Below, piece by piece: positions 15,373 through 62,373 of a stretch of DNA of 64,000 nt. A program made the translations under genes and the position numbers. The notes under the pieces were generated by a model. It worked only from the letters and a program-made list of their open reading frames with translations, was not told where the DNA came from and did no database searches. How positions within the stretch are numbered: the stretch's first letter is position 1; every line of letters begins with the position of its first letter. Source of the DNA: an uncultured Planctomycetia bacterium (lineage in GTDB: Bacteria; Omnitrophota; Gorgyraeia; JACOVV01); the NCBI GenBank assembly GCA_964372345.1, contig CAYJQR010000001.1, positions 36,825 to 100,824 on the forward strand, written 5' to 3'.

Positions 15373-16935
15373 ATGAATGTATTATCGGCGCTACTACTTG
15401 TTCTTAGTTATCCCCCCTTTAATTTCTGGTGGCTGGCGTGGCTTGGATTGATTCCGTTATTCACTTCACTCACCAAAACAAAGGATAGTAAACAATCATT
15501 TCTTCGGGGGTATCTCTTTGGTTTTCTTTTTTGGCTGGGAACTATTGGGTGGGTGGGCTACGTCACTATTTTCGGCGCCTTGATGCTGATCCTTTATTTA
15601 TCTCTTTATTCAGGTATCTTTGGATGGATTTTTTGGCGATTATGGAAGAAAAAAATTAGAGATTTTCGATTCATTCTGCTCATTTCTGGCGCGTGGACAA
15701 TCCTGGAATGGATTCGTTCTCATCTCTTCACTGGTTTTGGTTGGAATCTCTTGGCGTATTCCCAGGCGCCGAATCTACCGGTGATCCAAATCGCGGATCT
15801 CGTCGGGGCGTTTGGGGTGTCGTTTTTGGTGGTGTGGGTGAATGGGGCATTATTTTTGGCTAGGAGCTGGGAGCTAGGAGCTGGGAGCAAAGGCAAAATC
15901 AAAAGTTTTTTCTCCCAGCTCTTAGCTCCTAGCTCTCAGTTGACTTTTCTTCTGGTTATTCTCGTTTGTTCCTACGGTTTCTATCGTCTCAACGAAAAGA
16001 TACCCACAATTCCCGTCTCGATTGCTGTGATCCAAGGAAACGTCCCGCAAGACATCAAATGGGAAGATCAGTATCGTGAAGCGCTATTTCAACGGTATGA
16101 ACTCTTGACAAAAACGGCGACCTTGGATCATCCGCAGTTAGTCATCTGGCCGGAAACTTCCATCGTGGAAGATTTCAGCAATCCTGAGATTCAGAACCGA
16201 ATCGCCGGCATCGCCAGAGAGGCAAACAGTTTTCTCTTGGTCGGCGCTCCCTGGTCGAGTCAAACATCGGAAAATGGAAAATGCCCGCCGGAGGCGGGTC
16301 TGCCTCTTCAGCCGAAGGCTGATCAGCCTCAGGCTGAGGCAGAGAAAATAGAAAATAAAGAAGACATCGGCGGGCACTATTTCAACAGCGCTATTTTATT
16401 TGATCCTGAGGGGAACCTCGTTCAGAAATATGACAAACTCCATTTGGTTCCCTATGGTGAGTTTATTCCTTTTGAGAAACAATTCCCGTTTCAACGGAAC
16501 TGGATCGTCACCGGAGATTTTACTAGTGGGAAAGAACACACGGTCTTTACTACTCCCAGCTCCCTTCGACTTCGCTCAGGGCAGGCCCAGCTCCCTTCGA
16601 CTTCGCTCAGGGCAGGCCCAGCTCCTAGCCAGGTGGGTTTTTCCGTCTTGATCTGTTTCGAAGACCTCTTTCCTGATTTAGTTCGTCAATTTGTCAAGAA
16701 AGGGGCGCGGCTTCTGATCAATATTTCCAACGACGCGTGGTTTGGTGAAAGCGGCGCGGCGTTTCAGCACGCGCAGGCGTCTGTTTTTCGCGCGGTAGAG
16801 AACCGGGTCCCGGTGGTGCGGGCGACGAATACCGGTTTCAGTTGTTTCATTGATTCCCGCGGCCGTATTTATGAAAAGGCGCCGCCGTTTAAGACAGGAT
16901 ATCTCACAGCAAAGGTGGAAATCCCGAGCACTTGA
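15373..16935 (+). CDS. lnt: Apolipoprotein N-acyltransferase, carrying three in-frame repeat-element insertions.
   Basis: It has an N-terminal polytopic membrane domain plus a CN-hydrolase domain with a Glu (VIWPETS), Lys (YDKLHLVPYGEFIP) and Cys (ICFEDLFP) triad. The start was moved to ATG 15373 (MNVLSALL), which overlaps the secA stop. Confidence 0.85.
   Translation: MNVLSALLLVLSYPPFNFWWLAWLGLIPLFTSLTKTKDSKQSFLRGYLFGFLFWLGTIGWVGYVTIFGALMLILYLSLYSGIFGWIFWRLWKKKIRDFRFILLISGAWTILEWIRSHLFTGFGWNLLAYSQAPNLPVIQIADLVGAFGVSFLVVWVNGALFLARSWELGAGSKGKIKSFFSQLLAPSSQLTFLLVILVCSYGFYRLNEKIPTIPVSIAVIQGNVPQDIKWEDQYREALFQRYELLTKTATLDHPQLVIWPETSIVEDFSNPEIQNRIAGIAREANSFLLVGAPWSSQTSENGKCPPEAGLPLQPKADQPQAEAEKIENKEDIGGHYFNSAILFDPEGNLVQKYDKLHLVPYGEFIPFEKQFPFQRNWIVTGDFTSGKEHTVFTTPSSLRLRSGQAQLPSTSLRAGPAPSQVGFSVLICFEDLFPDLVRQFVKKGARLLINISNDAWFGESGAAFQHAQASVFRAVENRVPVVRATNTGFSCFIDSRGRIYEKAPPFKTGYLTAKVEIPST
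15859..15939. repeat. SWELGA-type palindromic element, copy B1, inserted in frame in lnt.
   Basis: Sequence is gctaggagctgggagctaggagctgggagc, a 24-nt interior, then ctcccagctcttagctcctagctctcag. It encodes ARSWELGAGSKGKIKSFFSQLLAPSSQL. A second copy sits in metG at 38848-38932. Confidence 0.8.
16269..16357. repeat. Composite miniature element in lnt: (GGAAAAT)2, a GC hairpin cccgccggaggcggg, a GGCTGATCAGCC-type palindrome, then (GAAAATA)2.
   Basis: Heptamers bracket two hairpins. It encodes ENGKCPPEAGLPLQPKADQPQAEAEKIENKE in frame. A sister copy sits in metG at 38472-38540. Confidence 0.8.
16555..16625. repeat. 31-bp direct tandem repeat (2.3 copies) inside lnt.
   Basis: The unit cccagctcccttcgacttcgctcagggcagg is repeated. 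It encodes SSLRLRSGQAQLPSTSLRAGPAPS in frame. Confidence 0.85.
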
Positions 16936-20940: not shown

Positions 20941-21649
<709 letters not shown>

Positions 21650-31143: not shown

Positions 31144-31187
31144 TTGATGATCCCACCACCTGTTTTCGACTCTTTGAGCCGATGATC

Positions 31188-31248
31188 CGCCTCAGCCAAA
31201 GGCTGATCAGCCTCTTCAGCCAAAGGCTGATCAGCCTCTGGCTGAGGC
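31188..31248. repeat. GGCTGATCAGCC-type palindromic/tandem element, copy C2, intergenic.
   Basis: Sequence is gcctcagccaaaggctgatcagcctcttcagccaaaggctgatcagcctctggctgaggc. The unit is duplicated inside terminal inverted repeats. It is related to the element inside lnt at 16290-16345. Confidence 0.8.
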
Positions 31249-31272
31249 ATGATGCTACGGGGAGGATTCATT

Positions 31273-33203: not shown

Positions 33204-34784
33204 ATGGGACTTAAGATTTACAATACGCTTACCGGAGAGAAAGAAGAATTTAAACCACTCCATCCTCCTCATGTCCGCATGTATGTCTGCGGCCCCACCG
33301 TTTACGATGATCCTCATATCGGGCATATCCGCGGGGCGTTTGTTTTTGACGTCATCCGCAAATATCTACAATACCGCGGCCACTCCGTAAAGTTTATCCG
33401 CAATATTACCGACGTGGATGACAAGATTATTGAGAAAGCACGGCAAGAGAGTAGGGGCGGGGTAACCCCGCCCCTACAACAGGCATGCGAACAGGTTGCC
33501 TTAAGGTACACAAATGCTTATCACGAGGCGCTAGAAAAACTCGAGATTGCTCCACCGGATGAAGAGCCAAGGGCCACTCAGTACATTCCAAAAATGATCG
33601 AGATGATTCAACATCTGATTGAGAAGGGGATAGCTTACGCGGAGGAAGGGAGTGTTTATTTTTCGGTCAACAGTTTCAAGGAATACGGAAAATTGTCCCA
33701 TCAGAGTCCGGAACAATTGTTGAAAGGGTATCGGATGGAGCCGGAGGCCGATAAAAGGGACCCGCTCGATTTTGCCCTCTGGAAAAACGCGAAACCTGAA
33801 GAACCGCAATGGCCCAGCCCCTGGGGGCCGGGGCGTCCCGGCTGGCACATTGAGTGTTCGGTGATGAGCCAGCGCCAGTTTGGCGAAACTCTCGACATCC
33901 ATGGCGGCGGAGTGGATCTGGTTTTCCCTCATCATGAGAACGAAATCGCCCAATCCGAAGCTTGCTGGGAGAAACCGTTCGCCAACTACTGGCTCCACAA
34001 CGGACTCCTCACCATCGAGGGAGAAAAGATGTCGAAGTCGGTGGGGAATGTGGTGGGGGTAAAAGACATCTTAGAGAATCCAGATGAGCGATATATAGCA
34101 GACGATCTGAAGTTATTCTTTCTGCAAAGCCATTACCGCAGTCCTGTGGATTTTAGCTGGGAGAAGATGAAAGGCATAAAAAGCAGCCGTCTAAGTTTTG
34201 ACAGATTTTTTATCAAATGTGAAGGAATTAAGAAGAAGGAAAAAGATATTATCGAAATAAATGACCTAATGGTAAAGGAAGCAAGGAAAAATTTTAAAGA
34301 AGCCATGGACGACGATTTCAACACGCCTAAGGTCCTGGCTATTTTATTTGAGCTGCTCAAGAGAGGAAATATTTGTTTAGATAGAGGGGAAGATACTCAC
34401 CTTGTGCTTGGTATTGAGCATGAACTAAAAGAAATAGGTCGCATCTTAGGGCTTTTTAAATGGGAACACTTGAAACTTTATGCAAAAGCAATCGAACGCA
34501 CTAGTAATTTCGATTATCGAGAAAGAGACTCAGAAGATCCACTTTCTTTCACGGGGATAAAAACTAGGAATGTCGCGATTGAACTTTTGTTTATGGAATT
34601 GGAATCAGAGGAAGGAAACAAGGACAAAAGAAAAGAAATAATAGATGAAATTTTAGCCATTCGTGACAACGCGCGCCGTGAAAAGGATTTTAAAAAAGCA
34701 GATGAAATTAGAGTTAGACTCGAGCAAATGGGCACCATAATCGAAGATGGAAAAGAGGGGACAACGTGGAGGCCAAAGGAATGA
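33204..34784 (+). CDS. cysS: Cysteine--tRNA ligase, carrying an in-frame palindromic insertion.
   Basis: Has HIGH (PHIGHIRG), KMSKS and a Zn-binding Cys region. The product is 526 aa. Confidence 0.9.
   Translation: MGLKIYNTLTGEKEEFKPLHPPHVRMYVCGPTVYDDPHIGHIRGAFVFDVIRKYLQYRGHSVKFIRNITDVDDKIIEKARQESRGGVTPPLQQACEQVALRYTNAYHEALEKLEIAPPDEEPRATQYIPKMIEMIQHLIEKGIAYAEEGSVYFSVNSFKEYGKLSHQSPEQLLKGYRMEPEADKRDPLDFALWKNAKPEEPQWPSPWGPGRPGWHIECSVMSQRQFGETLDIHGGGVDLVFPHHENEIAQSEACWEKPFANYWLHNGLLTIEGEKMSKSVGNVVGVKDILENPDERYIADDLKLFFLQSHYRSPVDFSWEKMKGIKSSRLSFDRFFIKCEGIKKKEKDIIEINDLMVKEARKNFKEAMDDDFNTPKVLAILFELLKRGNICLDRGEDTHLVLGIEHELKEIGRILGLFKWEHLKLYAKAIERTSNFDYRERDSEDPLSFTGIKTRNVAIELLFMELESEEGNKDKRKEIIDEILAIRDNARREKDFKKADEIRVRLEQMGTIIEDGKEGTTWRPKE
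33451..33477. repeat. Perfect palindrome with 12-bp arms (gtaggggcgggg taa ccccgcccctac), inserted in frame in cysS.
   Basis: It encodes RGGVTPPL within a segment that has no counterpart in E. coli CysRS. Confidence 0.85.
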
Positions 34785-34796
34785 CCTTTACGTTGC

Positions 34797-34830
34797 ACCG
34801 TGTTCCAACGCTCTCTCTAGGAACACGGTG
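34797..34830 (+). terminator. Hairpin downstream of cysS. A possible terminator, though it lacks a U-tract.
   Basis: accgtgttcc, a 14-nt loop, then ggaacacggt: a 10-bp stem. Confidence 0.3.
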
Positions 34831-34999
34831 GTCGTATAAAAAGCATCCCATAGTGGGAAATCATGACGATATTAAGCGGTGCCTGAAGAATCTAGGGTAG
34901 TATAGGCTTGTTCTACTACCCCTGCTGGTGAAAGCGGTCATCTTACTTATTATGATCAGCGGGCATTTCATATATTACCGATAGTAAGAAGAAAATTAT

Positions 35000-35028
35000 T
35001 TGACTTACTATTTGTGATATGGTATACT
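35000..35028 (+). promoter_or_regulatory. Near-consensus sigma70 promoter for vapBC.
   Basis: TTGACT (35000-35005), a 17-nt spacer and TATACT (35023-35028). An RBS gaggagga follows, with the ATG at 35055. Confidence 0.65.
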
Positions 35029-35054
35029 TTTCATATAAGAGAGGAGGATGTAAG

Positions 35055-35285
35055 ATGGACACTTCAGTGGTTACATCCAAAGGGCAAATTGTGATCCCAA
35101 GTAGGATCCGAGAGTATTTTCATATCCAACAGGGGACGATGGTTTGTTTTGAGCCTCGAGGCAGTGAGATCGTGTTGAAACCTCTCACTCCAGGATATTT
35201 TGACAAAATGGCAGGTATTCTTGGGACGAGCGGCAAAGTACTCAAGAGATTTCTGGATGAGAAGAAAAAGGAAAGAAGGCAATGA
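35055..35285 (+). CDS. vapB: VapB/MazE-type antitoxin (AbrB/SpoVT swapped-hairpin fold).
   Basis: MDTSVVTSKGQIVIPSRIRE is a typical AbrB/MazE N-terminus. The 4-nt overlap with the PIN gene is the usual TA arrangement. Confidence 0.75.
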   Translation: MDTSVVTSKGQIVIPSRIREYFHIQQGTMVCFEPRGSEIVLKPLTPGYFDKMAGILGTSGKVLKRFLDEKKKERRQ

Positions 35286-35689
35286 GTGGTTTGGTTCTGG
35301 ATGCCTATAGTGTTATTGCATATCTGGAGCGAGAATTCGCATATGAGAAGGTAAAGGTTCATTTAGAACAAGCAGTACAGAGTGGCCAGTATTTATTTTT
35401 ATGTACCGTAAACTGGGGAGAGGTTTATTACAGTGTCATGAAGGAAACAAATCACGCTAAGGCTGAAGAGGCTAGGCATGTTATTGCCACATTACCGATT
35501 GAATTAGTGCCGGCTGATCTGGGGTTGACTCATCAAGCGGCTCTGTATAAAGCAATCCACAAAATGTCCTACGCCGACTGTTTCGCTGCTGCTCTTGCCA
35601 AGATACGGAAAGCTACCCTCCTTACGGGTGACCGAGATTTTAAACAGCTCGATGGAGAAATCAAGGTAGAGTGGTTGCCAGAAAAATAA
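35282..35689 (+). CDS. vapC: PIN-domain VapC toxin.
   Basis: LVLDAYSVIAYL...; 135 aa with conserved acidic residues (D6, E, D, D). Translationally coupled to vapB. Confidence 0.75.
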   Translation: MSGLVLDAYSVIAYLEREFAYEKVKVHLEQAVQSGQYLFLCTVNWGEVYYSVMKETNHAKAEEARHVIATLPIELVPADLGLTHQAALYKAIHKMSYADCFAAALAKIRKATLLTGDRDFKQLDGEIKVEWLPEK

Positions 35690-35706
35690 TGTCTACTCAC
35701 TAAAAT

Positions 35707-36261
35707 TTAAGGTCGGTGTTGTAGACATCGGCTTGAAAGAGAATAGTTTTCTTGTATTTCTAGTGTAAGCGTCTGTGTTACATCTTCTTTTGACAGATAT
35801 CTTCCCTCTGACCAACCGACAACTTCCCCTATGACATTAAAATTTACTTTAAAGACTGTTATGGAAAGATGATCCGAGTGGGACGTGATACTAACCATTT
35901 CTCCTTCTTTAGGTTGGCCAGTGCCCCAGGAAGGTGAGTTGGGTGTGGTTCTTATTTGAGTGATATTTCCATTTATTTCATTAAGATCCGTAGGTGGACT
36001 ATTGATCAATTCTGGAGGTAAATTCATGCGATTCTCATTATTCACAACTTCATAGGCATTGGTAAAAATTGTTCGCGATGTAGTTACCCGAGTCCCCGAT
36101 TTATCGATGATCGTTTGTGTTTCTTGTATACCATCCCAATCGACCGTTACTACTTTATCTCCTGATGTGAGAGGCTTTAGACTATTTTTTAAAGGAGAGT
36201 ACCTTTTGAGAAAATTATCCCGATCCTGCTCATTTCGTAGGTCCGAAACATCAATGTTCAC
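35707..36261 (-). CDS. Hypothetical protein encoded in an AT-rich (foreign-looking) segment.
   Basis: A 184 aa ORF with no recognisable motifs. It is convergent with vapC and uses a GTG start. Confidence 0.35.
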   Translation of the reverse strand: MNIDVSDLRNEQDRDNFLKRYSPLKNSLKPLTSGDKVVTVDWDGIQETQTIIDKSGTRVTTSRTIFTNAYEVVNNENRMNLPPELINSPPTDLNEINGNITQIRTTPNSPSWGTGQPKEGEMVSITSHSDHLSITVFKVNFNVIGEVVGWSEGRYLSKEDVTQTLTLEIQENYSLSSRCLQHRP

Positions 36262-36452
36262 TTGAACGTGGGGTTCTTTCGCGGATGGCTTTGTTGTTTT
36301 ATTTGTAGGATTCGAGGTGAAATATTTTTAATTCTTTAATTTACAGAGTATTATGGTAAAAACTGCAAGCAACGAAACCCTTCATTGCACCCTCCTTTGG
36401 TTATGAGGGGGAGGAAGTGATACAATATGTGGAAAGGATGTGGAGGCGAGAG

Positions 36453-37082: not shown

Positions 37083-38059
37083 GCCAACAAACGGCGGTTT
37101 GGCTTTTTAAGAGAGCTCTCCGGGAGGAAAAGCTAGCCCACGCTTATCTTTTGACCGGGCCCGACGGCGTCGGTAAGAGAACTCTCGCTCAAGAGGCTGC
37201 GAAGGGACTGAACTGCCGGCTGGTTCATACCCAACTCGAGACTCGAGACTCGAGACTCGAGACTGAAGAAAATTGGCCCTGCGATTCCTGTCGCGAGTGC
37301 CGGCTGATCGAATCGGGACAGTACGCGGACGTCACTTTATTGACTCCTGAAAATAAAACTCTTAAGATCGAAGCCATTCGCCGCCTCCAACAGGCGGTGG
37401 CGCTGAAACCGTACGAAAGCCGTTTCCGTGTCGCGATTATTCAGGATGTGGACCAATTAACCCCCGACGCCGCCAACGCTTTCCTAAAAACGCTGGAAGA
37501 ACCGCCGCAGGGCGTTTTCTTTTTTCTAACGACCCAATACCGGGAGAGAGTTTTCGCGACGATTCAATCCCGTTGCCAGGTTGTCTCTCTGAAAGCCATT
37601 TCTAAAGAGATATTGGAGCGGAAGATGATCCCTCGTTCGGTGATTTCCTTGGCCCAGGGAAGTTTCGGCAGGGCAGACTATTGGATGGATCCCGAAGTGG
37701 GAGAGAGAAGAAAAAAAATCTTATCGGCGTTTTTCTTAAACCATTCTCTCGACGATATCAACGAAAAGGTATCCAGCAAAGAGGAGGAACGCCTGCTGAT
37801 GGAGGAAAAACTCCTTCTTCTGCAGAGCGGGCTTCGGGATTTAATCGTCTGGAAGAAAACAAAAGACGAGGCATTGCTCATTCATCGGGATTACCGGGAG
37901 CAAATCAGTCATTTTGCCTCCCGATTTGAGATGGACACTCTAGAAGATAAAATTATTTCTTTGGAACAGTTGACTCAAGGATTAGACCGCAGCGCTAACC
38001 TAAAACTAACCCGGGCGGTTCTGGAACTTGAGCTGGCGGACCTGACAAAGGCAGAATGA
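37061..38059 (+). CDS. holB: DNA polymerase III delta-prime subunit, with an in-frame heptamer tract.
   Basis: HAYLLTGPDGVGKRTLA, a Zn module (CDSCRECRL) and an SRC motif. 332 aa. It follows tmk as in Bacillus. Confidence 0.85.
   Translation: MSFSNILGQQTAVWLFKRALREEKLAHAYLLTGPDGVGKRTLAQEAAKGLNCRLVHTQLETRDSRLETEENWPCDSCRECRLIESGQYADVTLLTPENKTLKIEAIRRLQQAVALKPYESRFRVAIIQDVDQLTPDAANAFLKTLEEPPQGVFFFLTTQYRERVFATIQSRCQVVSLKAISKEILERKMIPRSVISLAQGSFGRADYWMDPEVGERRKKILSAFFLNHSLDDINEKVSSKEEERLLMEEKLLLLQSGLRDLIVWKKTKDEALLIHRDYREQISHFASRFEMDTLEDKIISLEQLTQGLDRSANLKLTRAVLELELADLTKAE
37235..37266. repeat. (CTCGAGA)4 heptanucleotide tandem repeat inside holB.
   Basis: Sequence is ctcgagactcgagactcgagactcgagactga. 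It encodes LETRDSRLETE in frame. Confidence 0.9.
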
Positions 38060-39774
38060 ATCGATACTACGTTACCACTCCTCTTTATTACGTCAACGAC
38101 AAACCCCATATCGGCCACGCCTATACCGAGATTGCGGCGGACACAATCGCTCGTTACCGTCGGTTCAGAGGGGATGAAGTTTTCTTTTTGACCGGGACCG
38201 ATGAGCATGGACAAAAAATCGAGCAGGCGGCTAAAAAAGCGGGGATGCCGGCGAAGGATTTCGCGGATCAGGTGGCTCCGCGTTTTTCGGAAGTATGGAA
38301 ACTTCTGGGGATCAGCTACGATTATTTTTTAAGGACGACGGAGCCAAGACATATTCAAACAGTGCAGAAGGTATTATCGCTCCTTTTTGAAAAAGGAGAT
38401 ATCTACATTTCTGAATACGAAGGATGGTATTGTACTCCCTGCGAGACGTTCTGGACGGAGACGCAGCTTGAAGAACAGAAAATGGAAAATGGAAAATGCC
38501 CACCGGAGGCGGGTTCGCCTCTGGCGAAGAAAATGGAAACGCCTGTTTGCATTGACTGCAAAAGACCGATTGAAAAAATCACGGAGAGTAATTACTTCTT
38601 TCGGTTATCGAAATATCAAGAGTGGCTGATGGACTACATCAATAGCCACCCTAAGTTTATCCAACCGGCAACGCGGCGGGAAGAAATCTTGAGTTTTTTG
38701 AAACAGCCGTTGAATGATCTCTGCATCTCACGTCCCAAACAGAGACTTGCATGGGGAATTCCGATTCCGTTCAGTCAAGATCATGTCACGTATGTGTGGT
38801 TTGACGCATTGATTAATTATATTAGTGGAATCGATTATCTTGAATGGGCTAAGAGCTGGGAGCTAGGAGCTAGGAGTGAAAACTCGGATTCTACCTCGCC
38901 AGCTTCCAGCTTCCAACTTCTAGCTTCTAGCCGTTTTTCAAAATTCTGGCCGGCCGATATGCACTTAATCGGCAAAGACATCCTTCGCCCTCACGCCGTC
39001 TACTGGCCCATCATGCTGCGCGCTCTCGGAATAGAACCCCCTAAACAGGTTTTTGCTCACGGCTGGTGGACGATGCAAGAGGAAAAAATGTCGAAATCCA
39101 AAGGAAATATCGTTGATCCGGTGGACGTCTGCGCCCGCTATGGCGTGGACGTTTTTCGTTATTTCCTTCTAAGAGAGGTGACCTTTGGGCTGGATGGCGC
39201 TTACTCGGAGGGGGCGTTGACTTTGAGGTTTAACAGTGATTTAGCCAACGATCTTGGTAATTTGTTTCATCGAACCCTGACGATGGTGGAGAAATACTAT
39301 GGGGGGAAAGTACCCCAGGTAGAACAGAAGGACGAGGGACGAAGGACGAGGGACGAAAGGAAATATATCCCAGAAGACTTAATCGTTCTTCTTCGATCTC
39401 TTCCGGATCGTTTGGATCAAGCGATGGAGGATCTTGATTTCGCGCGCGCTCTTTCCGCCATCTGGGAGTGCGTCAACCGGGCCAATAAATTGATTGAAGA
39501 AGTGAAACCGTGGGTTTTAGACAGGGAAAACGACCGGGAAGGGTTAAATCAAGTCATCTATTTTTTGGTGGATCTATTACGGATCATTACTCTGGCGGTG
39601 GCCCCCTTCATGCCGCGCGCGGCGGAAAAGATGTGGAAACAATTGAACCTTCCCTCGAAGTTAGAAGCGATGGGTTTTGAGGATTTGGCTCCTGGAAAAA
39701 CCGTCGGCGGTTTCCATGTGAACAAGGAAGAACCGCTCTTTCCCCGATTAGACACTAAGAAAGGAGACCGTTAA
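38056..39774 (+). CDS. metG: Methionine--tRNA ligase, carrying three in-frame repeat insertions.
   Basis: Has HIGH (PHIGHAY), KMSKS and Zn-knuckle cysteines (CTPCE...CIDCKRP). The product is 572 aa. Confidence 0.9.
   Translation: MNRYYVTTPLYYVNDKPHIGHAYTEIAADTIARYRRFRGDEVFFLTGTDEHGQKIEQAAKKAGMPAKDFADQVAPRFSEVWKLLGISYDYFLRTTEPRHIQTVQKVLSLLFEKGDIYISEYEGWYCTPCETFWTETQLEEQKMENGKCPPEAGSPLAKKMETPVCIDCKRPIEKITESNYFFRLSKYQEWLMDYINSHPKFIQPATRREEILSFLKQPLNDLCISRPKQRLAWGIPIPFSQDHVTYVWFDALINYISGIDYLEWAKSWELGARSENSDSTSPASSFQLLASSRFSKFWPADMHLIGKDILRPHAVYWPIMLRALGIEPPKQVFAHGWWTMQEEKMSKSKGNIVDPVDVCARYGVDVFRYFLLREVTFGLDGAYSEGALTLRFNSDLANDLGNLFHRTLTMVEKYYGGKVPQVEQKDEGRRTRDERKYIPEDLIVLLRSLPDRLDQAMEDLDFARALSAIWECVNRANKLIEEVKPWVLDRENDREGLNQVIYFLVDLLRIITLAVAPFMPRAAEKMWKQLNLPSKLEAMGFEDLAPGKTVGGFHVNKEEPLFPRLDTKKGDR
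38472..38540. repeat. Composite miniature element in metG: AGAACAG, (AAAATGG)3, hairpin cccaccggaggcggg, hairpin ttcgcctctggcgaa, then GAAAATGGAAAC.
   Basis: It encodes ENGKCPPEAGSPLAKKME, inserted between the two CxxC pairs of the MetRS zinc knuckle. It is a sister of the lnt copy at 16269-16357. Confidence 0.8.
38848..38932. repeat. SWELGA-type palindromic element, copy B2, inserted in frame in metG.
   Basis: Sequence is gctaagagctgggagctaggagctaggag ... ccagcttccagcttccaacttctagcttctagcc. It encodes AKSWELGARSENSDSTSPASSFQLLASS. Confidence 0.8.
39321..39360. repeat. (GAAGGAC/GAGGGAC) heptamer tandem repeat with an AGAACAGAA left terminus, inside metG.
   Basis: Sequence is agaacagaaggacgagggacgaaggacgagggacgaaagg. 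It encodes KDEGRRTRDERK in frame. Confidence 0.85.
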
Positions 39775-39816: not shown

Positions 39817-40950
39817 ATGTACTCCAGATTAATTGCCCCCCCAAAGGGGAAGAGCTTCTTTCTATTCGGGCCGCGGGGGACTGGAAAAACAACGTGGGTT
39901 AAAGCGGTCTTTCCTAACGCCCTCTATCTTGATCTTCTAGAAGCGGAACTTTTTAATGACCTTTTGGCTAATCCACAACGGCTGGAGAACTTAATCCCCC
40001 AATCGTTCAGCGACTGGATTATCATTGATGAAGTGCAAAAGGTCCCTGAGCTCCTAAATGAAGTCCACCGGTTGATCGAAAAATATAAATATCAGTTCAT
40101 CTTGACTGGTTCCAGCGCTAGGAAATTAAAGAAAAAGGGGCCAAACTTATTGGCAGGCCGCGCGTTAACCTACTCGATGCATCCTCTGACAGCGATGGAA
40201 CTGGGGCGAGATTTTAACTTAGATCACTCTCTAAAATATGGACAACTTCCCTGTGTCTATAGCGAGGCAAACCCCAAAGGTTATCTGGAGAGTTATGTAA
40301 AGACTTACCTAGAGCAAGAAATCCAGCAGGAAGGACTCACAAGAAACTTGGGGGCTTTTTCGCGTTTTTTAGAATCGGCTAGTTTCTCACAGGCGGCCGT
40401 ACTCAATATTTCAGCGGTAGCGCGTGAGTGCGCTATCGAGAGAAAAGTAGTTGAGAATTATTTCACTATCTTAGAGGATTTATTAATTGCGTATCGAATT
40501 CCTGTTTTTACAAAAAAAGCTAAAAGGCGATTGGTCACCCACTCAAAGTTTTATTTTTTTGATGTTGGGGTTTATCGTGTTTTAAGACCGATGGGACCTT
40601 TGGATATGCCTGAATCCGCCGAAGGGGCGGCATTGGAGGGGCTTTTGTTTCAGGAATTGAATGCGATCAATGCCTATTTTGATCTGGGCTACAAGATCTA
40701 TTTCTGGAGGACCTCCAATCAAGTGGAGGTTGATTTTGTGTTGTATGGGAATAAGGGATTGAGAGCGTTTGAGGTGAAACGGACCCGGAAAATCTCAAAC
40801 TCTATGCTAAAAGGACTCAAGGCGTTTTTAGAAAACTATCCACTAGCTAAAGCCTATTTCCTTTATGGTGGAGAACGCCGTATGCGGGAAGGGAAAATTG
40901 AGATTATTCCAATGGATTCCGCGCTCAAAAATTTACCCTCACTTCTCTAG
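39817..40950 (+). CDS. AAA+ ATPase with a C-terminal DUF4143-like domain.
   Basis: Walker A FLFGPRGTGKTT and Walker B IIIDEVQK. The 377 aa architecture is typical of the ATPase (AAA+ superfamily)/DUF4143 family common in defense islands. Confidence 0.75.
   Translation: MYSRLIAPPKGKSFFLFGPRGTGKTTWVKAVFPNALYLDLLEAELFNDLLANPQRLENLIPQSFSDWIIIDEVQKVPELLNEVHRLIEKYKYQFILTGSSARKLKKKGPNLLAGRALTYSMHPLTAMELGRDFNLDHSLKYGQLPCVYSEANPKGYLESYVKTYLEQEIQQEGLTRNLGAFSRFLESASFSQAAVLNISAVARECAIERKVVENYFTILEDLLIAYRIPVFTKKAKRRLVTHSKFYFFDVGVYRVLRPMGPLDMPESAEGAALEGLLFQELNAINAYFDLGYKIYFWRTSNQVEVDFVLYGNKGLRAFEVKRTRKISNSMLKGLKAFLENYPLAKAYFLYGGERRMREGKIEIIPMDSALKNLPSLL
40833..40950. repeat. 118-bp direct repeat, copy 1. 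This is the 3' end of the ATPase gene.
   Basis: About 97% identical to 42527-42654. Confidence 0.9.
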
Positions 40951-40974
40951 TCTAAAAACTGAAGGAACCGTGGA

Positions 40975-42276
40975 ATGTCTGGGGCGTGGGCAAATAAAAA
41001 ATTCGCCGAAGATATCCAGTCAGTAAACCAAGACCTGAAAAATTTGAACCATGATAAACCCTTGAGGAAAGGTCTTGAAGGGAGTGATATGGCGCAAGAT
41101 TCTATAAAATGTCCTAAATGCGGGGAGGCAATCCCTCTTTCTGAGGCGTTGTCGCAGGATATTGAAGAACGCGCCCGCCGGAAATACGAGGCGCAATTAT
41201 CTGAAAAAGAAACCGAATACCAAGCTCTGCTGAGAAAACAGCGCGAAGAACTTGCGATAAAACTTAAAAAACAGGCAGAAGAAGCTGTCAGCGCTGAAAT
41301 GACCGATCTGAAAGAGCAAGCGGAAGAGACGAAACGCAAGCTGAAACAAGCCAATGAGAATGAGTTGGCGTTGCGCAAAAAACAGCGCGAATTGGAAGAG
41401 AGGGAAAAAACGCTTGAGTTGGAAACCGCCAGAAAGATAGACGAAGAACGGCGAAAGATCGAGACGGATGTTTTCACGCGACTTGAAGAACAGCATAAGC
41501 TGAAAGACGCGGAAAAAGATAAGAAACTTTCGGATGCCTTCAAGCAGGTTGAAGAATTAAAGCGAAAGATGGAGCAAGGTTCCCAGCAGATGCAGGGAGA
41601 AGTGCTTGAATTGGAACTAGAAGAATTATTTAAGCGAGAGTTTCCTTTTGATGTCATCGAACCAGTTTCCAAAGGGGTGCGGGGCGCTGATATTGTCCAA
41701 ACTGTCAAAACGCAATCCGGGCGCACGTGCGGGAAAATCCTCTGGGAAACAAAGAGAGTAAAAAACTGGAGCGACTCCTGGGTTCAAAAGTTGAAAGACG
41801 ATCAGCAAGACGCGAAAGCGGATATTGCAGTCCTCGTTTCCGAGGCGCTTCCCGCGGGGTTTCATCACTTTCGGCAGATTCACAGTGTGTGGGTAACGGA
41901 TATTCCATCGGCCGTTAGCCTGGCTTTAGCCCTGAGAGTGGTGTTGATTCAAGTGGCCAGTGCCAAGGAAATGGAGAGTGGCAAAGATGATAAAAAGGAT
42001 CTCATTTATCGTTATATAACTGGTACTGACTTCCGTAATCGGGTCACTGCGATCATCGAAGGATTTCGGACAATGAAAGAAGACCTTGAAGCGGAGAAGC
42101 GAGCCATGCAGAGGATTTGGGGAAACCGGGAAAAGCAGATCGAAAGGATCATTTTCAACACGGCCGGGATGTACGGGGATTTAGAGGGGTTGGCTGGGGC
42201 GGCCTTGCCGCAGATTAAGATTCTGGAGTTGCCAGTAGGGGAAAATATAGAAAAGAAGACAAGGGAGACAGAGTAA
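40975..42276 (+). CDS. DUF2130-like protein: an N-terminal zinc ribbon, a long coiled coil and a C-terminal PD-(D/E)xK-like motif.
   Basis: CPKCGE zinc ribbon, an EK-rich coiled coil and GADIVQTV...GKILWETKR (a D...E-x-K pattern). The start may be the ATG at 41089. Confidence 0.55.
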   Translation: MSGAWANKKFAEDIQSVNQDLKNLNHDKPLRKGLEGSDMAQDSIKCPKCGEAIPLSEALSQDIEERARRKYEAQLSEKETEYQALLRKQREELAIKLKKQAEEAVSAEMTDLKEQAEETKRKLKQANENELALRKKQRELEEREKTLELETARKIDEERRKIETDVFTRLEEQHKLKDAEKDKKLSDAFKQVEELKRKMEQGSQQMQGEVLELELEELFKREFPFDVIEPVSKGVRGADIVQTVKTQSGRTCGKILWETKRVKNWSDSWVQKLKDDQQDAKADIAVLVSEALPAGFHHFRQIHSVWVTDIPSAVSLALALRVVLIQVASAKEMESGKDDKKDLIYRYITGTDFRNRVTAIIEGFRTMKEDLEAEKRAMQRIWGNREKQIERIIFNTAGMYGDLEGLAGAALPQIKILELPVGENIEKKTRETE

Positions 42277-55920: not shown

Positions 55921-56825
55921 ATGAGTTCAGTTTCATCAAAAGACTTTCCCAATCCATCAAGACAAATCGCTCAGTCATCGTCGGGATTGGGGATGACGCG
56001 GCGGTTCTTCAATATAAGAAAGACCGCTATCTTCTTTTTACGACTGACATGATCGTGGAAGGAACGCATTTCCTTTTAAAGAGCGCGGCTCCTTATCAAA
56101 TCGGCTGGAAGGCGATGGCGGTGAACCTGAGTGATATTGCGGCCATGGGAGGATTGCCTCGATGGGCGGTGGTGTCGCTGGGGGGGCCGTTTCAAAGACG
56201 GAAAATGGAAAATGGAAAATGGAAAATAGAAGAATTTGTCTGGGAAATTTACCGAGGGATGAGCGCGGTGGGCAAGAAATTCGGCGTTCAGATTGTGGGA
56301 GGGGATACCGATAAGGCGGACCGGTGGACGATCAACATCGCGCTATTGGGAGAAGTAGAAAAAAAATATCTAAAACTTCGCTCAGGAGCGAAAGTGGGTG
56401 ATCGGGTCTTTGTCACGGGTTCACTCGGCGGCTCGATTCATGGGAAACACCTGACTTTCATTCCTCGAGTCAAAGAGGCCCGCTATTTAGTCACTCATTA
56501 TCCGGTGACCAGCATGATGGATCTCTCGGACGGCCTGGCGAGCGACCTTTGCCGGATCATGGAGCAGAGCAAGGTTGGAGTCCTGATTGATGAAGAAAGA
56601 ATCCCTCTTTCAAAAGAGGCAAAGGACTCGCGAAGCGCTTTCTGCGATGGGGAAGATTTTGAATTATTATTTACGGTGCCAAAATCCGCGGGCGAAAGAT
56701 TAGAGAGGAACGTCCCCTGGGCGCGTCTGATTGGAGAAGTGACGCCTGCTTCGCGAGGACTACGGATGAGAGATCGAACTGGGCAGGTGCGGACGGTCGC
56801 ATGGAAAGGGTTCGAGCACTTCTAA
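55917..56825 (+). CDS. thiL: Thiamine-monophosphate kinase, carrying an in-frame heptamer insertion.
   Basis: An AIRS-family N-terminus (FSFIKRLSQ...GIGDDAAVL). The insert RRKMENGKWKIEEF sits at 56200-56232. Confidence 0.75.
   Translation: MNEFSFIKRLSQSIKTNRSVIVGIGDDAAVLQYKKDRYLLFTTDMIVEGTHFLLKSAAPYQIGWKAMAVNLSDIAAMGGLPRWAVVSLGGPFQRRKMENGKWKIEEFVWEIYRGMSAVGKKFGVQIVGGDTDKADRWTINIALLGEVEKKYLKLRSGAKVGDRVFVTGSLGGSIHGKHLTFIPRVKEARYLVTHYPVTSMMDLSDGLASDLCRIMEQSKVGVLIDEERIPLSKEAKDSRSAFCDGEDFELLFTVPKSAGERLERNVPWARLIGEVTPASRGLRMRDRTGQVRTVAWKGFEHF
56200..56232. repeat. (GGAAAAT)3.5 heptamer array, copy A5, inside thiL.
   Basis: ggaaaatggaaaatggaaaatggaaaatagaag. Confidence 0.85.
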
Positions 56826-61107: not shown

Positions 61108-62373
61108 ATGAAACGCGATATTCAAAGTCTGGCTCTAGCGGATAAGGGAAAAGACCGTATCGAGTGGGCGGGACAAAGTATGCCGGTTGTTCTTTCGATC
61201 CGCAAGGATTTCTCCAGCGCCAAACCGCTCAAGGGAGTGAGGATCGGCGCTTGTCTTCACGTGACTTCCGAAACAGCCAATCTGATGATCACTTTGAAAG
61301 AAGGGGGAGCCCATGTTTCTCTCTGCGCGTCGAATCCGCTGAGCACTCAGGACGACGTGGCCGCTTCGCTGGTGAAACATTACGGCATCCCGGTCTTCGC
61401 CGTCAATGGAGAAAATTCAAAACGGTATTACCGTCATATTCAGGCGGTTCTGGCCGCCAATCCACAGGTCACTATGGACGATGGAGCCGATTTAATCTCA
61501 ACCCTCCACCGAACTCAAAACTCGAAACTCGAAACTCAAGACTCAATCTGGGGTTCTACTGAGGAAACAACAACAGGAGTCATTCGTCTCAAGAGTTTGG
61601 AAAAAGCAGGGAAACTTCGGTTCCCGGTCATCGCGGTCAATGAAGCACAAACCAAACATCTTTTCGACAATCGCTACGGCACAGGCCAGTCAACGCTCGA
61701 TGGCATTATCCGGGCGACGAATCACCTGATCGCCGGGCAAATATTCGTCGTGGCCGGCTATGGCTGGTGCGGCAAAGGGGTGGCGATGCGCGCCAAGGGA
61801 TTAGGGGCGCAGGTGGTCGTTACTGAGATAGAACCGCTCCGGGCATTGGAAGCGGTCATGGACGGCTTTTCCGTCAAGACGATGGCCGAGGCGGCTCGAA
61901 TTGGCGATATCTTTGTAACGCTGACCGGAGACCGCGACGTGATCAGAAAAGAACATTTCCTAAAGATGAAAGACGGAGCAATTCTTGCCAACTCAGGGCA
62001 TTTCGACATTGAAATTGATATTGCGGCCCTGAAAAAACTGAGCCGGAGAACCCGCAGAATCCGTTCGTTTGTGGATGAGTATGTTTTACGGGGTGGAAGG
62101 AAGATTTACGTTCTTGGGGAAGGCCGCCTCGTCAACCTAGCGGCGGCAGAGGGGCATCCTGCCAGTGTCATGGATTTAAGTTTTGCCAATCAATCGCTGT
62201 CAGTAGAATATGTGGTTTCTCACCACGAGGAATTAAGAAATAAAGTCTATGCGGTTCCTGAAGAGATTGATCGTAGTATCGCTCAATTAAAGTTACGGGC
62301 AATGAAAATTTCCATTGACGCTTTGACGCGGGAACAAAGAGATTATCTGAAGTCGTGGCAGCTTGGGACGTAA
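61108..62373 (+). CDS. ahcY: Adenosylhomocysteinase, carrying an in-frame heptamer tract.
   Basis: An NAD-binding GYGWCGKG. The 421 aa product has the insert [11 protein letters not shown]. Confidence 0.9.
61512..61549. repeat. (AACTCGA/AACTCAA) heptamer tandem repeat inside ahcY.
   Basis: aactcaaaactcgaaactcgaaactcaagactcaatc. Same ACTCGAR family as the holB tract. Confidence 0.85.

What the first reader, a model, noticed from the sequence alone, without database searches (positions are those of the whole stretch)
38056..39774. metG also carries three in-frame repeat insertions, one between the CxxC pairs of its zinc knuckle
- **Insertion in the zinc knuckle.** The element at 38472-38540 (ENGKCPPEAGSPLAKKME) sits between CTPCE and CIDCK, the two CxxC pairs of the MetRS zinc-binding knuckle. 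It brings its own Cys residue.
- **Second insertion.** A SWELGA copy (38848-38932) that has the same sequence as the one in lnt.
- **Third insertion.** A GAAGGAC heptamer tract (39321-39360).
- **Implication.** The same mobile sequences have hit two unrelated essential genes in frame. That implies strong selection for stop-free, length-neutral elements.
Basis: partly seen in the sequence, partly recalled or inferred. Interest (0 to 1): 0.6.

Follow-up and report, generated by a model that had tools for sequence, protein, structure and literature searches.

The report
In-frame heptamer repeats inside MetRS
The methionyl-tRNA synthetase gene of this Omnitrophota bacterium really does carry three translated copies of short DNA repeats, which belong to a lineage-wide set of repeats that sit in tolerant protein loops of many essential genes, stay at the same spots across species and keep changing sequence.

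Summary
metG (38056-39774, 572 aa; Omnitrophota MetRS are typically ~510 aa) has three extra in-frame segments at the stated coordinates.

- **Site 1**, between the invariant CTPC and CIDC pairs: (GAAAATG)3, then a 30-nt pair of 15-nt mini-palindromes, then GAAAATGGAAA.
- **Site 2**: an 85-nt imperfect hairpin of heptamer arms. Only its 5' arm matches the lnt copy.
- **Site 3**: (GGACGAR)4, with no second copy in the window.

These are not three random hits by one transposon. Period-7 tracts of about four units occur 16 times in the window, against 0-1 for other periods, almost all in frame in genes. Five related genomes carry tracts at the same MetRS loops with different 7-nt units. The closest relative has GAAAGTG wherever the window has GAAAATG, at three unrelated genes. 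Only the 30-nt mini-palindrome insert and the 42 nt by which site 2 exceeds the relative's plain tract are specific to this lineage.

An AlphaFold model keeps the MetRS fold, with confidence dipping at the inserts. I read them as tolerated, selection-filtered repeat DNA: a new, coding-region variant of heptamer simple-sequence repeats and Rickettsia-type in-frame palindromes. How the tracts spread and stay uniform is unresolved.

The parts
38056..39774 (+). metG ORF (572 aa), intact, with HIGH and KMSKS motifs and four invariant knuckle cysteines
38431..38442 (+). First CxxC pair of the zinc knuckle (C126-T-P-C129)
   Evidence: invariant columns
38478..38498 (+). Site 1, part a: (GAAAATG)3 heptamer tract, read as (K)MENGK(C)
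38499..38528 (+). Site 1, nested 30-nt element made of two 15-nt 6-3-6 mini-palindromes: CCCACC-GGA-GGCGGG (one mismatch) and TTCGCC-TCT-GGCGAA. It is a clean indel against the closest relative and is inserted right after GAAAATG.
38529..38539 (+). Site 1, part b: remainder of the interrupted heptamer tract (GAAAATGGAAA)
38548..38559 (+). Second CxxC pair of the zinc knuckle (C165-I-D-C168)
38847..38876 (+). Site 2, 5' arm: (GCTAGGA-type)4 heptamers, read as AKSWELGARS, 29/31 identical to lnt 15858-15887. The in-frame TAG position reads TGG.
38877..38898 (+). Site 2, loop of the hairpin element (unrelated to the lnt loop)
38899..38931 (+). Site 2, 3' arm: (CCAGCTT/CTAGCTT)4.7. It pairs with the 5' arm mostly through G-U wobbles, so the hairpin is degraded (z = -2.1, against -9.0 for the lnt copy). 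It ends at the same boundary as the orthologues' tract.
39327..39357 (+). Site 3: (GGACGAR)4 tract, read as QKDEGRRTRDE, unstructured as RNA. It is 30 nt longer than orthologues that lack it. The same unit family occurs at the orthologous site in L003 and at the 3' end of aspS in L092.
15858..15940 (+). lnt site A: near-perfect heptamer-arm hairpin (RNA fold z = -9.0), sister of the site 2 element. Relatives carry unrelated palindromes at this same spot.
16269..16359 (+). lnt site B: (GAAAATG)2, then the same mini-palindrome element with a further 30 nt nested in its second loop, then GAAAATAGAAAATA. The relative has plain (GAAAGTG)2 here.
31186..31249 (+). Intergenic cluster of the same 15-nt GCC-N3-GGC mini-palindromes (TCAGCC-NNN-GGCTGA), inside a 131-nt segment absent from the relative
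56200..56231 (+). (GAAAATG)4 tract in frame in the AIR-synthase-family gene. The orthologous tract in L001 is (GAAAGTG)3 with identical flanks.
37234..37264 (+). (ACTCGAG)4.4 tract in frame in holB, directly upstream of metG. The L001 copy is decayed.
61512..61546 (+). (AACTCRA)5 tract in frame in ahcY. L001 has (GTACGAA)4 at the same boundaries.
21137..21169 (+). (GAAAATG)4.7 tract in frame in an ABC-transporter ATPase. With its flanks it is 87% identical over 52 nt to 5346-5397.

Best explanation
**What the segments are.** The three extra MetRS segments are passively translated copies of a repeat system that pervades this Omnitrophota lineage. It has two components.
- (a) Tracts of about 30 nt made of roughly four tandem heptamers. 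Some occur as two inverted tracts that form a long hairpin.
- (b) 15-nt mini-palindromes (6-bp stem, 3-nt loop, GCC...GGC core). In the two coding copies they come as a 30-nt pair lodged inside a heptamer tract, and one of those pairs carries a second pair in its loop.

**Where they survive.** The genome is gene-dense, so the repeats persist mainly inside genes. They persist only where an insert is harmless: surface loops, cleaved leader peptides and C-termini. They must also be a multiple of 3 in length, free of stops and mostly hydrophilic. In MetRS the permissive places are the tip of the zinc knuckle, the junction between the connective-peptide domain and the second Rossmann half, and a loop of the anticodon-binding helical domain.

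**How they change.**
- The tracts at these sites predate the split from related species. They are kept perfectly periodic by ongoing homogenisation, that is, concerted evolution within a tract and apparently between tracts of one genome.
- New material arrives preferentially inside existing tracts, so a site persists while its sequence turns over.
- The knuckle mini-palindrome pair, and the 42 nt by which the site 2 hairpin exceeds the relative's plain tract, are specific to the window's lineage.

**Shown:** the anatomy, the dispersal, the conserved positions with unit turnover, the clean indels, the selection filter and the preserved fold.

**Inferred:** that the peptides have no function, and the copying mechanism. 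I favour structure- or sequence-targeted copy-in, plus slipped-strand mispairing or gene conversion.
For: **Heptamer tracts are specific and dense.**
- The window holds 16 period-7 tracts, against 0-1 for other periods.
- That is 25 per 100 kb, against 2.4 per 100 kb in 1.34 Mb of unrelated MetRS loci.
- Relatives have 22-90 per 100 kb.
- Most tracts are 30-33 nt long.

**They lie in frame in many genes**.

**Same sites, different units.** In the MetRS of L001, L003, L005, L006 and L007, different units sit at the same sites. L005 is empty at sites 1 and 3.

**Concerted change.**
- The window has GAAAATG where L001/L090 have GAAAGTG, in every full unit, at metG site 1, the AIR-synthase-family gene and lnt site B. 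The flanks are identical.
- At tract level, Fisher p = 0.012.
- At ahcY the whole tract has switched unit within the same boundaries.

**Nesting.**
- The 30-nt element is a clean indel inside the tract.
- The lnt copy carries a second 30-nt pair in its loop.
- There are 8 perfect GCC-core 6-3-6 palindromes, against 0.21 expected, and only with a 3-nt loop.

**Selection filter.**
- 20 of 22 units are stop-free, against 65% expected.
- TAG reads TGG at the in-frame position.
- Indels within metG are 30 and 42 nt.

**The fold is preserved.**
- AF2 mean pLDDT is 91.9. It dips to 66-80 only at residues 141-160, 271-290 and 421-440, plus a short dip at 341-350.
- TM-score is 0.90-0.94 to solved MetRS structures.
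- The four knuckle Cys, HIGH and KMSKS are conserved.

**No known RNA family** matches the window.
Against: - No mechanism is demonstrated. No transposase, RAYT-like enzyme or reverse transcriptase was found, though only part of one 64-kb window was screened.
- No population polymorphism could be examined. The metagenome scan returned only the already known relative, and the genome scan was swamped by a generic pattern.
- Perfect periodicity at a site shared by the whole clade (site 2) could instead reflect selection for some function of the repeat.
- AF2 gives the site 2 insert two helices at moderate confidence, so a structural role is not excluded.
- Coordinated unit switching between loci rests on only three orthologous loci.
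- At site 1 the L006 tract is inserted about 9 nt upstream of the others. Some shared sites are therefore recurrent independent insertions rather than inheritance.
Confidence: 0.62

Rival explanations
1. Classical non-autonomous transposons (MITE-like) have recently and independently jumped into metG and lnt. The shared sequences are copies of one active element mobilised by a transposase encoded elsewhere.
For: - Near-identical copies lie at unrelated loci: 85 nt at 95% identity (1033-1117 and 1479-1563), 39 nt at 92% and 30 nt at 93% between metG and lnt.
- 52 nt including flanks is 87% identical between 5346-5397 and 21124-21175.
- There are clean presence/absence indels against the relative: 30 nt in metG, 68 nt at 6955-7019 and 131 nt at 31141-31271.
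Against: - No terminal inverted repeats distinct from the heptamer arms were seen.
- No unambiguous target-site duplication was seen. The nested element is flanked by the tract itself.
- No transposase was found among the ORFs screened.
- Simple tracts such as site 3 have no inverted ends at all.
- Orthologous sites in five other genomes are already occupied, by different units.
- The uniform length of about four units is not a transposon property.
Confidence: 0.15
2. Purely local simple-sequence-repeat dynamics. Each tract arose in place by polymerase slippage on a chance duplicated heptamer and evolves independently. Resemblance between loci is convergence on favoured units.
For: - Heptamer repeats are over-represented in many bacteria. 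They have been attributed to polymerase slippage, commonly with four units (PMC4692102, read).
- They also occur in unrelated control loci such as Dialister and Pelotomaculum.
- (GAAAATG)n and (GAAAGTG)n tracts occur in Ignavibacteria, Moraxella and Siphonobacter.
- Unit changes within a tract are concerted.
Against: - Single-unit slippage shifts the frame by 7 nt and would be lethal in metG.
- Copies share non-periodic sequence beyond the tract: the heptamer/mini-palindrome junction GAAAATG|CCCRCCGGAGGCGGG in metG and lnt, and flanks at 5346 and 21124.
- The same unit dominates about seven loci of one genome, while the sister genome uses a variant at all three shared loci.
- The inverted-arm elements are not explained by slippage.
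Confidence: 0.12
3. The repeats are functional. Possible roles are RNA or DNA structures or protein-binding arrays that regulate translation, mRNA stability or replication, or peptide loops that give MetRS and other proteins a lineage-specific interaction. Selection would then keep them at fixed sites.
For: - Site 2 is occupied in all six members of the clade. The tracts there are still near-perfectly periodic despite 64-85% protein identity between members. A decaying relic looks different, as in holB of L001.
- The lnt hairpin is extremely stable, z = -9.
- AF2 predicts helices in the site 2 insert.
Against: - Unit sequence, and therefore the peptide and any binding motif, differs completely between close relatives at the same site.
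- Some orthologues lack the insert altogether: L005 at sites 1 and 3.
- Site 1 shows no significant structure beyond a 9-bp stem, and site 3 shows none.
- The metG hairpin is degraded relative to the lnt copy.
- There is no Rfam match.
Confidence: 0.09
4. Sequencing or assembly artefact: chimeric or mis-collapsed repeats in a metagenome-assembled genome.
For: The window comes from a metagenome-derived contig, and short repeats can confuse assemblers.
Against: - The ORF is intact, with all conserved motifs in frame.
- The tracts are far shorter than read length.
- Relatives assembled independently from different samples and pipelines carry tracts at the same sites.
- The identical P0002 protein was recovered on 5 contigs.
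Confidence: 0.02

Closest known systems
Heptanucleotide simple-sequence repeats: cyanobacterial STRR sequences (Calothrix/Nostoc) and the GGGAATC / GGGGAYT repeats of Xanthomonas and Nostoc (Rehm et al. 2015, PMC4692102; the over-representation of heptamers noted in 2007 is cited there)
   Same: - Tandem 7-nt units are dispersed at many loci.
- Several unit families coexist per genome.
- About four units is the commonest length.
- Some occur as inverted pairs able to form stem-loops.
- The same loci are occupied in related species, with variation in length and sequence.
   Different: - Those repeats are intergenic and under-represented in coding regions, and they were interpreted through G-quadruplex formation.
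- Here the units are mostly not G-rich, and most tracts lie in frame inside genes, including essential ones.
- The four-unit preference persists without G4 potential.
Small dispersed repeats (SDR) of Nostocaceae (Elhai et al. 2008, Genome Res 18:1484). This is cited from my own knowledge and from the reference list of PMC5861425. The paper itself was not held.
   Same: - Very small hairpin-forming dispersed elements.
- They are found embedded in tandem heptamer tracts and inside copies of themselves, giving nested insertions.
   Different: - A different phylum, with no sequence relation tested.
- The units here are 15-nt 6-3-6 palindromes with a GCC/GGC core, present in the two coding copies as 30-nt in-frame pairs.
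- SDRs are 21-27 nt and are not described as systematically in frame.
Rickettsia palindromic elements (RPE; Ogata et al. 2000 and 2002, as summarised in PMC10969869)
   Same: - Palindromic selfish DNA inserted in frame into unrelated housekeeping genes.
- It is translated, compatible with the host protein fold, and gives a family-specific peptide.
   Different: - RPEs are about 100-150 bp, not built of heptamers, and belong to Rickettsia-specific families.
- Positional persistence with sequence turnover, and nesting of 15-nt units, are not RPE features.
REP/BIME/REPIN elements with RAYT transposases (PMC3116915, listed but not read; the details are from my own knowledge)
   Same: - Short palindromic repeats with species-specific consensus sequences.
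- They are thought to be copied through single-stranded hairpins.
   Different: REPs are extragenic. No RAYT gene and no REP-like conserved 5' tetranucleotide were seen here. No enzyme has been identified.
Phase-variable contingency loci with 7-nt repeats, e.g. neuO and the H. influenzae hmw1A promoter (titles seen)
   Same: Tandem heptanucleotide units inside or next to genes.
   Different: - Contingency loci work by frame or promoter-spacing changes, with variable copy number, in non-essential surface genes.
- Here the tracts sit in essential genes, always in frame, with a near-constant four units.

Membership tests
Heptanucleotide SSR / STRR-type dispersed tandem repeats | Head-to-tail tandem copies of a 7-nt unit | tested here: met
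   TRF finds period 7 at 38478-38498, 38848-38876, 38899-38931 and 39330-39356. The window has 16 period-7 tracts, against 0-1 for other periods.
Heptanucleotide SSR / STRR-type dispersed tandem repeats | Many dispersed loci and several unit families in one genome | tested here: met
   At least 8 unit families at about 16 loci in 64 kb. GAAAATG occurs at 7 loci. Relatives are likewise dense.
Heptanucleotide SSR / STRR-type dispersed tandem repeats | Predominantly intergenic, under-represented in coding DNA (as described for Xanthomonas and Nostoc, PMC4692102) | tested here: not met
   Nearly all tracts lie in frame inside Pfam-identified genes. Control lineages such as Dialister and Pelotomaculum keep them intergenic and with stop codons.
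Heptanucleotide SSR / STRR-type dispersed tandem repeats | Modal length of about four units | tested here: met
   Most tracts are 3.9-4.7 units, or 30-33 nt.
SDR-like very small mobile elements (Elhai 2008) | Small hairpin-forming dispersed repeats nested within heptamer tracts or within copies of themselves | tested here: met
   The 30-nt element sits inside (GAAAATG)n in both metG and lnt. The lnt copy holds a further 30-nt pair in its loop. GCC-core 6-3-6 palindromes number 8, against 0.21 expected.
SDR-like very small mobile elements (Elhai 2008) | Sequence membership in SDR1-8; confinement to Nostocaceae | not testable with these tools
   The paper and its sequences were not held. The organism is Omnitrophota, so membership is unlikely and the resemblance is functional only.
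Rickettsia palindromic elements (RPE) | Palindromic element inserted in frame in unrelated protein-coding genes and translated with the host protein | tested here: met
   The site 2 hairpin in metG and its sister in lnt are both in frame. Translation itself is inferred from the intact ORFs.
Rickettsia palindromic elements (RPE) | About 100-150 bp elements belonging to the RPE sequence families of Rickettsia | tested here: not met
   The elements here are 30-85 nt, built of heptamers or 15-mers, in a different phylum. No RPE-family comparison was run.
MITE | Terminal inverted repeats plus target-site duplication; derivation from an IS | tested here: inconclusive
   The inverted arms are the heptamer tracts themselves. 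The clean indels show no unambiguous duplication, because the nested element is flanked by the repeated tract. No transposase was found among the ORFs screened.
REP/REPIN-RAYT | Extragenic palindromes associated with a RAYT (Y1 transposase) gene | not tested
   Only selected ORFs of one 64-kb window were scanned. The rest of the genome was not available.
Phase-variable contingency SSR | Copy-number polymorphism that switches frame or expression | tested here: inconclusive
   The identical P0002 protein occurs on 5 contigs. The L001 and L002 loci, from two sources, have identical tract lists. No strain-level read data were available, and a frame-switching role is implausible in essential metG.

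The most novel reading that the evidence does not exclude
The tracts are not passive relics. They are products of an active, genome-wide, template-directed process that writes or rewrites about 4.3 copies of a 'current' heptamer at pre-existing tract sites. Candidates are a reverse-transcriptase or telomerase-like enzyme, or a hairpin-specific ssDNA enzyme.

Such a process would explain five things at once:
- the uniform length of about 30 nt, whatever the unit;
- perfect periodicity at sites that are older than the species;
- different units at orthologous sites;
- the coordinated GAAAATG/GAAAGTG switch at three unrelated genes;
- the long-unexplained four-unit preference and excess of heptamer repeats in other bacteria.
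Probability: 0.15. Interest if true: 0.85.

Novelty: new variant of a known kind. Interest (0 to 1): 0.58.

Why it matters
**An open question becomes testable.**
- Heptamer repeats have been known to be over-represented in bacterial genomes since 2007, with no accepted origin or function.
- Here they sit inside essential genes, so every tract is under a hard frame constraint, and orthologous tracts can be aligned codon by codon between species.
- That turns the open question into a testable one. Single-unit slippage is excluded in metG, yet the units are homogenised and replaced. Some process other than simple slippage must therefore act.

**A second case of in-frame repeat colonisation.**
- After Rickettsia RPEs, this is another clear case of selfish or neutral repeats colonising protein loops. 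It occurs in a free-living or episymbiotic candidate phylum.
- It shows which loops of MetRS, including the tip of its zinc knuckle, tolerate 10-26 extra residues.

**A practical point.** These tracts inflate protein lengths, depress orthologue identity (MetRS 82% against 90-95% for its neighbours) and seed spurious small ORFs in annotation.

Tried and rejected
1. **Genome scan.** It returned only distant MetRS loci, best 49% identity. These were useless for orthologue comparison, so I reused them as a 1.34-Mb control for tract density.
2. **Metagenome scan.** A scan with a site 1 flank pattern found only the P0002 contig again and one distant Omnitrophota MetRS without inserts. No population variants were obtained.
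3. **The window's own contig.** I tried to fetch DNA beyond the window, and the accession, by exact-protein look-up. All three failed because the gene calls differ or the contig is not on record.
4. **P0005 DNA.** It was unavailable because the sample file is too large.
5. **Elhai 2008.** The paper is not held, so the SDR comparison rests on memory and on a citing paper.
6. **Known RNA or tRNA-derived elements.** Rfam gathering thresholds and ARAGORN found nothing.
7. **G-quadruplex reading (as for Xanthomonas).** Rejected as a general explanation, because most units (GAAAATG, ACTCGAG, CAGTCAC, ACTCACG and others) have no G-runs.
8. **A single large hairpin at site 1.** Rejected. Both flanking tracts are in direct orientation, and only the nested 9-bp stem folds (z = -0.8).
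10. **Repeat-coded peptide search.** A search with (ENGKWKM)6 showed that such tracts occur in other phyla. The visible hits were short spurious ORFs, so it did not reveal how many real proteins carry in-frame tracts.

Full report
**1. What is at the coordinates**

The ORF 38056..39774 (+) encodes a 572-aa protein. It is an unambiguous methionyl-tRNA synthetase:
- Pfam tRNA-synt_1g covers residues 4-408 at E=3.7e-110, followed by anticodon-binding domains.
- The best solved relative is Aquifex aeolicus MetRS (2csx, E=3e-141). The pairwise alignment opens gaps or splits at exactly three places.

Named homologues are all Candidatus Omnitrophota/Omnitrophica, and most are 506-520 aa long. In an 88-sequence Omnitrophota alignment the four knuckle cysteines (C126, C129, C165, C168) are invariant. 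The HIGH (PHIGHAYT) and KMSKS motifs are intact in the translation.

Spacer lengths at the three sites:

| Site | Interval | Window | Other Omnitrophota MetRS |
|---|---|---|---|
| 1 | C129-C165 | 35 aa (the longest) | 13 aa in 73 of 88 |
| 2 | I256-W298 | 41 aa | 15 aa in 81 of 88 |
| 3 | P420-L449 | 28 aa | modal 21 aa |

**2. Anatomy of the three segments**

*Site 1 (38478-38539).*
- The DNA reads (GAAAATG)3, then CCCACCGGAGGCGGGTTCGCCTCTGGCGAA, then GAAAATGGAAA.
- The two heptamer blocks are in direct orientation. Only the middle 30 nt folds, as a 9-bp stem, and the whole segment is not unusually structured (z = -0.8).
- The 30 nt resolves into two 15-nt mini-palindromes with a 6-bp stem and a 3-nt loop: CCCACC-GGA-GGCGGG (one mismatch) and TTCGCC-TCT-GGCGAA.
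- The 'own Cys' (Cys148, TGC) is created at the junction ...AAATG|CCC.

*Site 2 (38847-38931).*
- It has a 5' arm of four GCTAGGA-type heptamers, a 22-nt loop, and a 3' arm of 4.7 CCAGCTT/CTAGCTT units.
- It folds into an imperfect hairpin held largely by G-U pairs (z = -2.1). The sister element in lnt (15858-15940) is a near-perfect hairpin (z = -9.0).
- The two 5' arms are 29/31 identical and both read (K/R)SWELGA. The loops are unrelated and the 3' arms are only about 65% alike.

*Site 3 (39327-39357).* It is (GGACGAR)4, has no RNA structure (z = +1.5) and has no second copy in the window.

**3. The segments belong to a much larger system**
- Period-7 tandem tracts occur 16 times in the 64-kb window, against 0-1 for periods 5, 6 and 8-11.
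- That is 25 per 100 kb. The control, 1.34 Mb of unrelated MetRS loci, has 2.4 per 100 kb, most of it from two Dialister loci and Pelotomaculum.
- Almost all tracts are 30-33 nt, about 4.3 units.
- At least eight unit families are present. GAAAATG alone occupies seven loci: 20 matches to a two-unit probe, against 0.14 expected.
- About half the tracts are paired with an inverted tract and form long hairpins.

Unlike the control lineages, whose tracts are intergenic and contain stops, here they lie in frame inside identified genes:
- two pseudopilin leaders, where an 85-nt element, 95% identical between the two genes, even supplies the start codon;
- a T2SSK-like protein and a Big_13 protein;
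- lnt (three sites), an ABC ATPase, and the ispD C-terminus;
- holB, metG (three sites), an AIR-synthase-family gene and ahcY.

A second repeat class also exists. It consists of 15-nt 6-3-6 palindromes with a GCC...GGC core. There are 8 perfect copies against 0.21 expected, and only with a 3-nt loop. They lie at metG site 1, lnt site B, an intergenic cluster at 31186-31249, and 23038.

**4. Comparison with relatives changes the interpretation**

I fetched metG DNA from five related genomes with 64-85% protein identity and aligned it codon by codon.

| Locus | Site 1 | Site 2 | Site 3 |
|---|---|---|---|
| Window | (GAAAATG)3 + 30 nt + GAAAATGGAAA | hairpin element | (GGACGAR)4 |
| L001 | (GAAAGTG)4 | (CCACTAY)4 | (GAAGCAA)2 |
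| L003 | (GAAGCAA)4 | (ACTCACG)4 | (GACGASG)4 |
| L005 | empty | (ACGAGCC)4 | no tract |
| L006 | (GGGCAAG)4 | (AGGGTCA)4 | no tract |
| L007 | (CAGTCAC)4 | (AAGGTCA)4 | no tract |

- At site 2 all six sequences share the right-hand boundary (...CG|TTTT).
- At site 1 the L006 tract is inserted about 9 nt upstream of the others. Some of these are therefore independent insertions into the same loop.

lnt shows the same behaviour. Each relative carries a different palindrome or tract at each of its three variable sites.

The sites are therefore old, or recurrently used, while their content turns over.

**5. The closest relative (L001/L090)**

This genome is syntenic with the window, at 87-90% nucleotide identity. 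It gives the sharpest evidence.
- At metG site 1, in the AIR-synthase-family gene and at lnt site B, the flanks are identical or nearly so. Every full unit is GAAAATG in the window and GAAAGTG in the relative. That makes nine units with the same transition. Independent substitution cannot produce that pattern, so the tracts evolve in concert.
- All six pure tracts of this family in the window are A-type, and all three in the relative are G-type (Fisher p = 0.012). This suggests homogenisation between loci as well, though only three loci are directly orthologous.
- In ahcY the whole tract has a different unit, (AACTCRA)5 against (GTACGAA)4, inside identical boundaries.
- The holB tract of the relative is simply decaying.
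- Within metG the only length differences are two clean indels. One is the 30-nt mini-palindrome pair inside the site 1 tract. The other is 42 nt at site 2, where the relative has a plain four-unit tract and the window has the hairpin element.
- In lnt site B the same mini-palindrome element is again inserted right after GAAAATG. It carries a further 30-nt pair (TCAGCC-GAA-GGCTGA, TCAGCC-TCA-GGCTGA) in the loop of its second palindrome. The relative has none of this.

So new material lodges inside existing repeats. That gives a simple reason why a site can persist while its sequence changes.

**6. Selection filter and structural tolerance**

A tandem heptamer passes through all three reading frames every three units. 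It is translatable only if none of its seven cyclic triplets is a stop.
- 20 of 22 units seen in coding tracts meet this, against 65% expected from base composition. By my own binomial arithmetic, p is about 0.006.
- The exceptions are the two arms of the GCTAGGA/CTCCTAG element. In both metG and lnt the one in-frame TAG position reads TGG.
- The coding-strand units are purine-rich and encode hydrophilic residues (ENGKWKM, DEGRRTR).
- The pyrimidine-rich arms (PFSILHS, SQLLAPSS) occur in leader or membrane segments.

An AlphaFold2 model built from the 88-sequence alignment has mean pLDDT 91.9 and pTM 0.91.
- Confidence falls to 66-80 only at residues 141-160, 271-290 and 421-440, which are the three inserts, plus a short loop at 341-350.
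- The model superposes on solved MetRS structures with target-normalised TM 0.90-0.94.
- The site 2 insert is predicted as two short helices. This echoes the helix-hairpins described for Rickettsia palindromic elements.
- I could not inspect the coordinates, so whether Cys148 can reach the zinc site is untested.

**7. Interpretation**

*Best supported.* The segments are tolerated, selection-filtered passengers from a lineage-wide repeat system: heptamer tracts plus nested mini-palindromes. They are not adaptations of MetRS, and they are not three fresh hits by one transposon.

*Mechanism (inferred).*
- Copy-in is targeted to existing tracts or hairpins, probably on single-stranded DNA.
- Homogenisation is by slipped-strand mispairing with correction, or by gene conversion.
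- Simple one-unit slippage is excluded in metG, because it would shift the frame.

*Rivals.* These are classical MITE transposition, purely local repeat dynamics, a functional role, and assembly artefact. They are weighed in the Rival explanations section.

*Most novel reading not excluded.* An active, templated 'tract-writing' process would also explain the uniform length of about four units. The same preference in Xanthomonas was attributed to G-quadruplexes (PMC4692102), but here the units lack G-runs.

**8. Relation to what is known**
- Heptamer repeats are known to be over-represented in bacteria and remain unexplained. In Xanthomonas and Nostoc they are intergenic, mostly four units long, sometimes inverted, and variable between species at shared loci.
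- Cyanobacterial SDR elements nest in heptamer tracts and in themselves (Elhai 2008; my own knowledge, with the citation seen).
- Rickettsia RPEs are in-frame palindromes in housekeeping genes.

The present case combines these features in a different phylum and moves them into coding DNA. I file it as a new variant of a known kind, not as a member of any of those sequence families.

(GAAAATG)n and (GAAAGTG)n tracts also occur in Ignavibacteria, Moraxella bovis and Siphonobacter. There they are mostly called as spurious 30-70-aa ORFs.

**9. Limits**
- Only one 64-kb window and short loci from about six relatives were available.
- The two large-collection scans gave no population variants.
- No enzyme candidate was found among the ORFs screened.
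- Translation of the inserts is inferred from ORF integrity.

Noticed in passing
window 39817-53089: A low-GC (0.40-0.45) defence island of about 13 kb lies between metG and tatD and is absent from the syntenic relative L001. It holds an AAA_14/DUF4143 ATPase, DUF2130, type I R-M genes (HsdR 42675-45056, HsdM 46636-48210, HsdS 48207-49406), AbiEi/AbiEii (45146-46632), a 1099-aa TIR-domain protein (49403-52702) and a GIY-YIG protein (52757-53089).
   Followed up: partly
window 40828-40950 and 42532-42654: Two 123-nt direct repeats, 97% identical, flank the DUF2130 gene (family D4). This looks like a duplication made when that gene was inserted at the 3' end of the DUF4143 gene.
   Followed up: no
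window 1033-1117 and 1479-1563: Two 85-nt heptamer-arm hairpin elements, 95% identical, sit at the very 5' ends of two adjacent pseudopilin genes. The first ATG of the (GAAAATG)n arm follows a GGGAGGGG Shine-Dalgarno-like motif, so the element appears to supply the start codon and most of the cleaved leader peptide (MENGKWKMENGFRNLFFPFSILHSPFS...).
   Followed up: partly
window 16555-16625 (lnt site C): A 31-nt unit (CCCAGCTCCCTTCGACTTCGCTCAGGGCAGG) is repeated 2.3 times at 100% identity, in frame in lnt. Relatives carry other short repeats at this spot, including a TCCGCC-TCT-GGCGGA mini-palindrome in L090 and CCCAGCA heptamers in L092.
   Followed up: partly
window 33204-36416: cysS is only 64% identical to the L001 orthologue, while the neighbouring genes are 90-95% identical. 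The cysS-tmk spacer differs completely between the two genomes, and in the window it includes a PIN-domain gene at 35282-35689. This is a locally replaced or fast-evolving segment.
   Followed up: no
window 6955-7019: An intergenic 68-nt element upstream of pilM is absent from L090 as a clean indel. It consists of a GCGKTMA-type arm plus (CTGTACC)4.4. A tract of the related CTGWACG family lies upstream of holB in L001, where the window has nothing.
   Followed up: partly
L079 and L081 (Dialister sp. loci), L011 and L015 (Pelotomaculum), L023: A few unrelated lineages in the control set are also dense in heptamer tracts: up to 15 tracts in 21 kb around metG in Dialister, with units AACCCTG, GTGACTA and AGTTAGG. 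These are intergenic and contain stop codons.
   Followed up: partly
proteins P0241-P0360: A search with (ENGKWKM)6 found 842 protein clusters with E <= 10. The best hits are 30-70-aa 'hypothetical proteins' from Ignavibacteria, Moraxella bovis, Siphonobacter and many metagenomes, and they are simply translated (GAAAATG)n/(GAAAGTG)n tracts. This is an annotation artefact class, and it shows that this unit family is widespread.
   Followed up: partly
alignment A2, site 3 (P0096, P0111, P0118, P0119) and P0006 residues near KMSKS: Other Omnitrophota MetRS carry different, palindrome-like peptide inserts, e.g. RVSSFVFSAFAKASADRRRSSFV. P0006 has an extra 11-aa insert just before KMSKS. In-frame repeat insertion may therefore be common across the phylum.
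   Followed up: no
L092 8682-8708 (aspS 3' end): A (GAAGGAC)n tract of the same unit family as metG site 3 extends the C-terminus of AspRS in a related genome (…EETEGRRMKDEG*, against …KPEG* in the window).
   Followed up: yes
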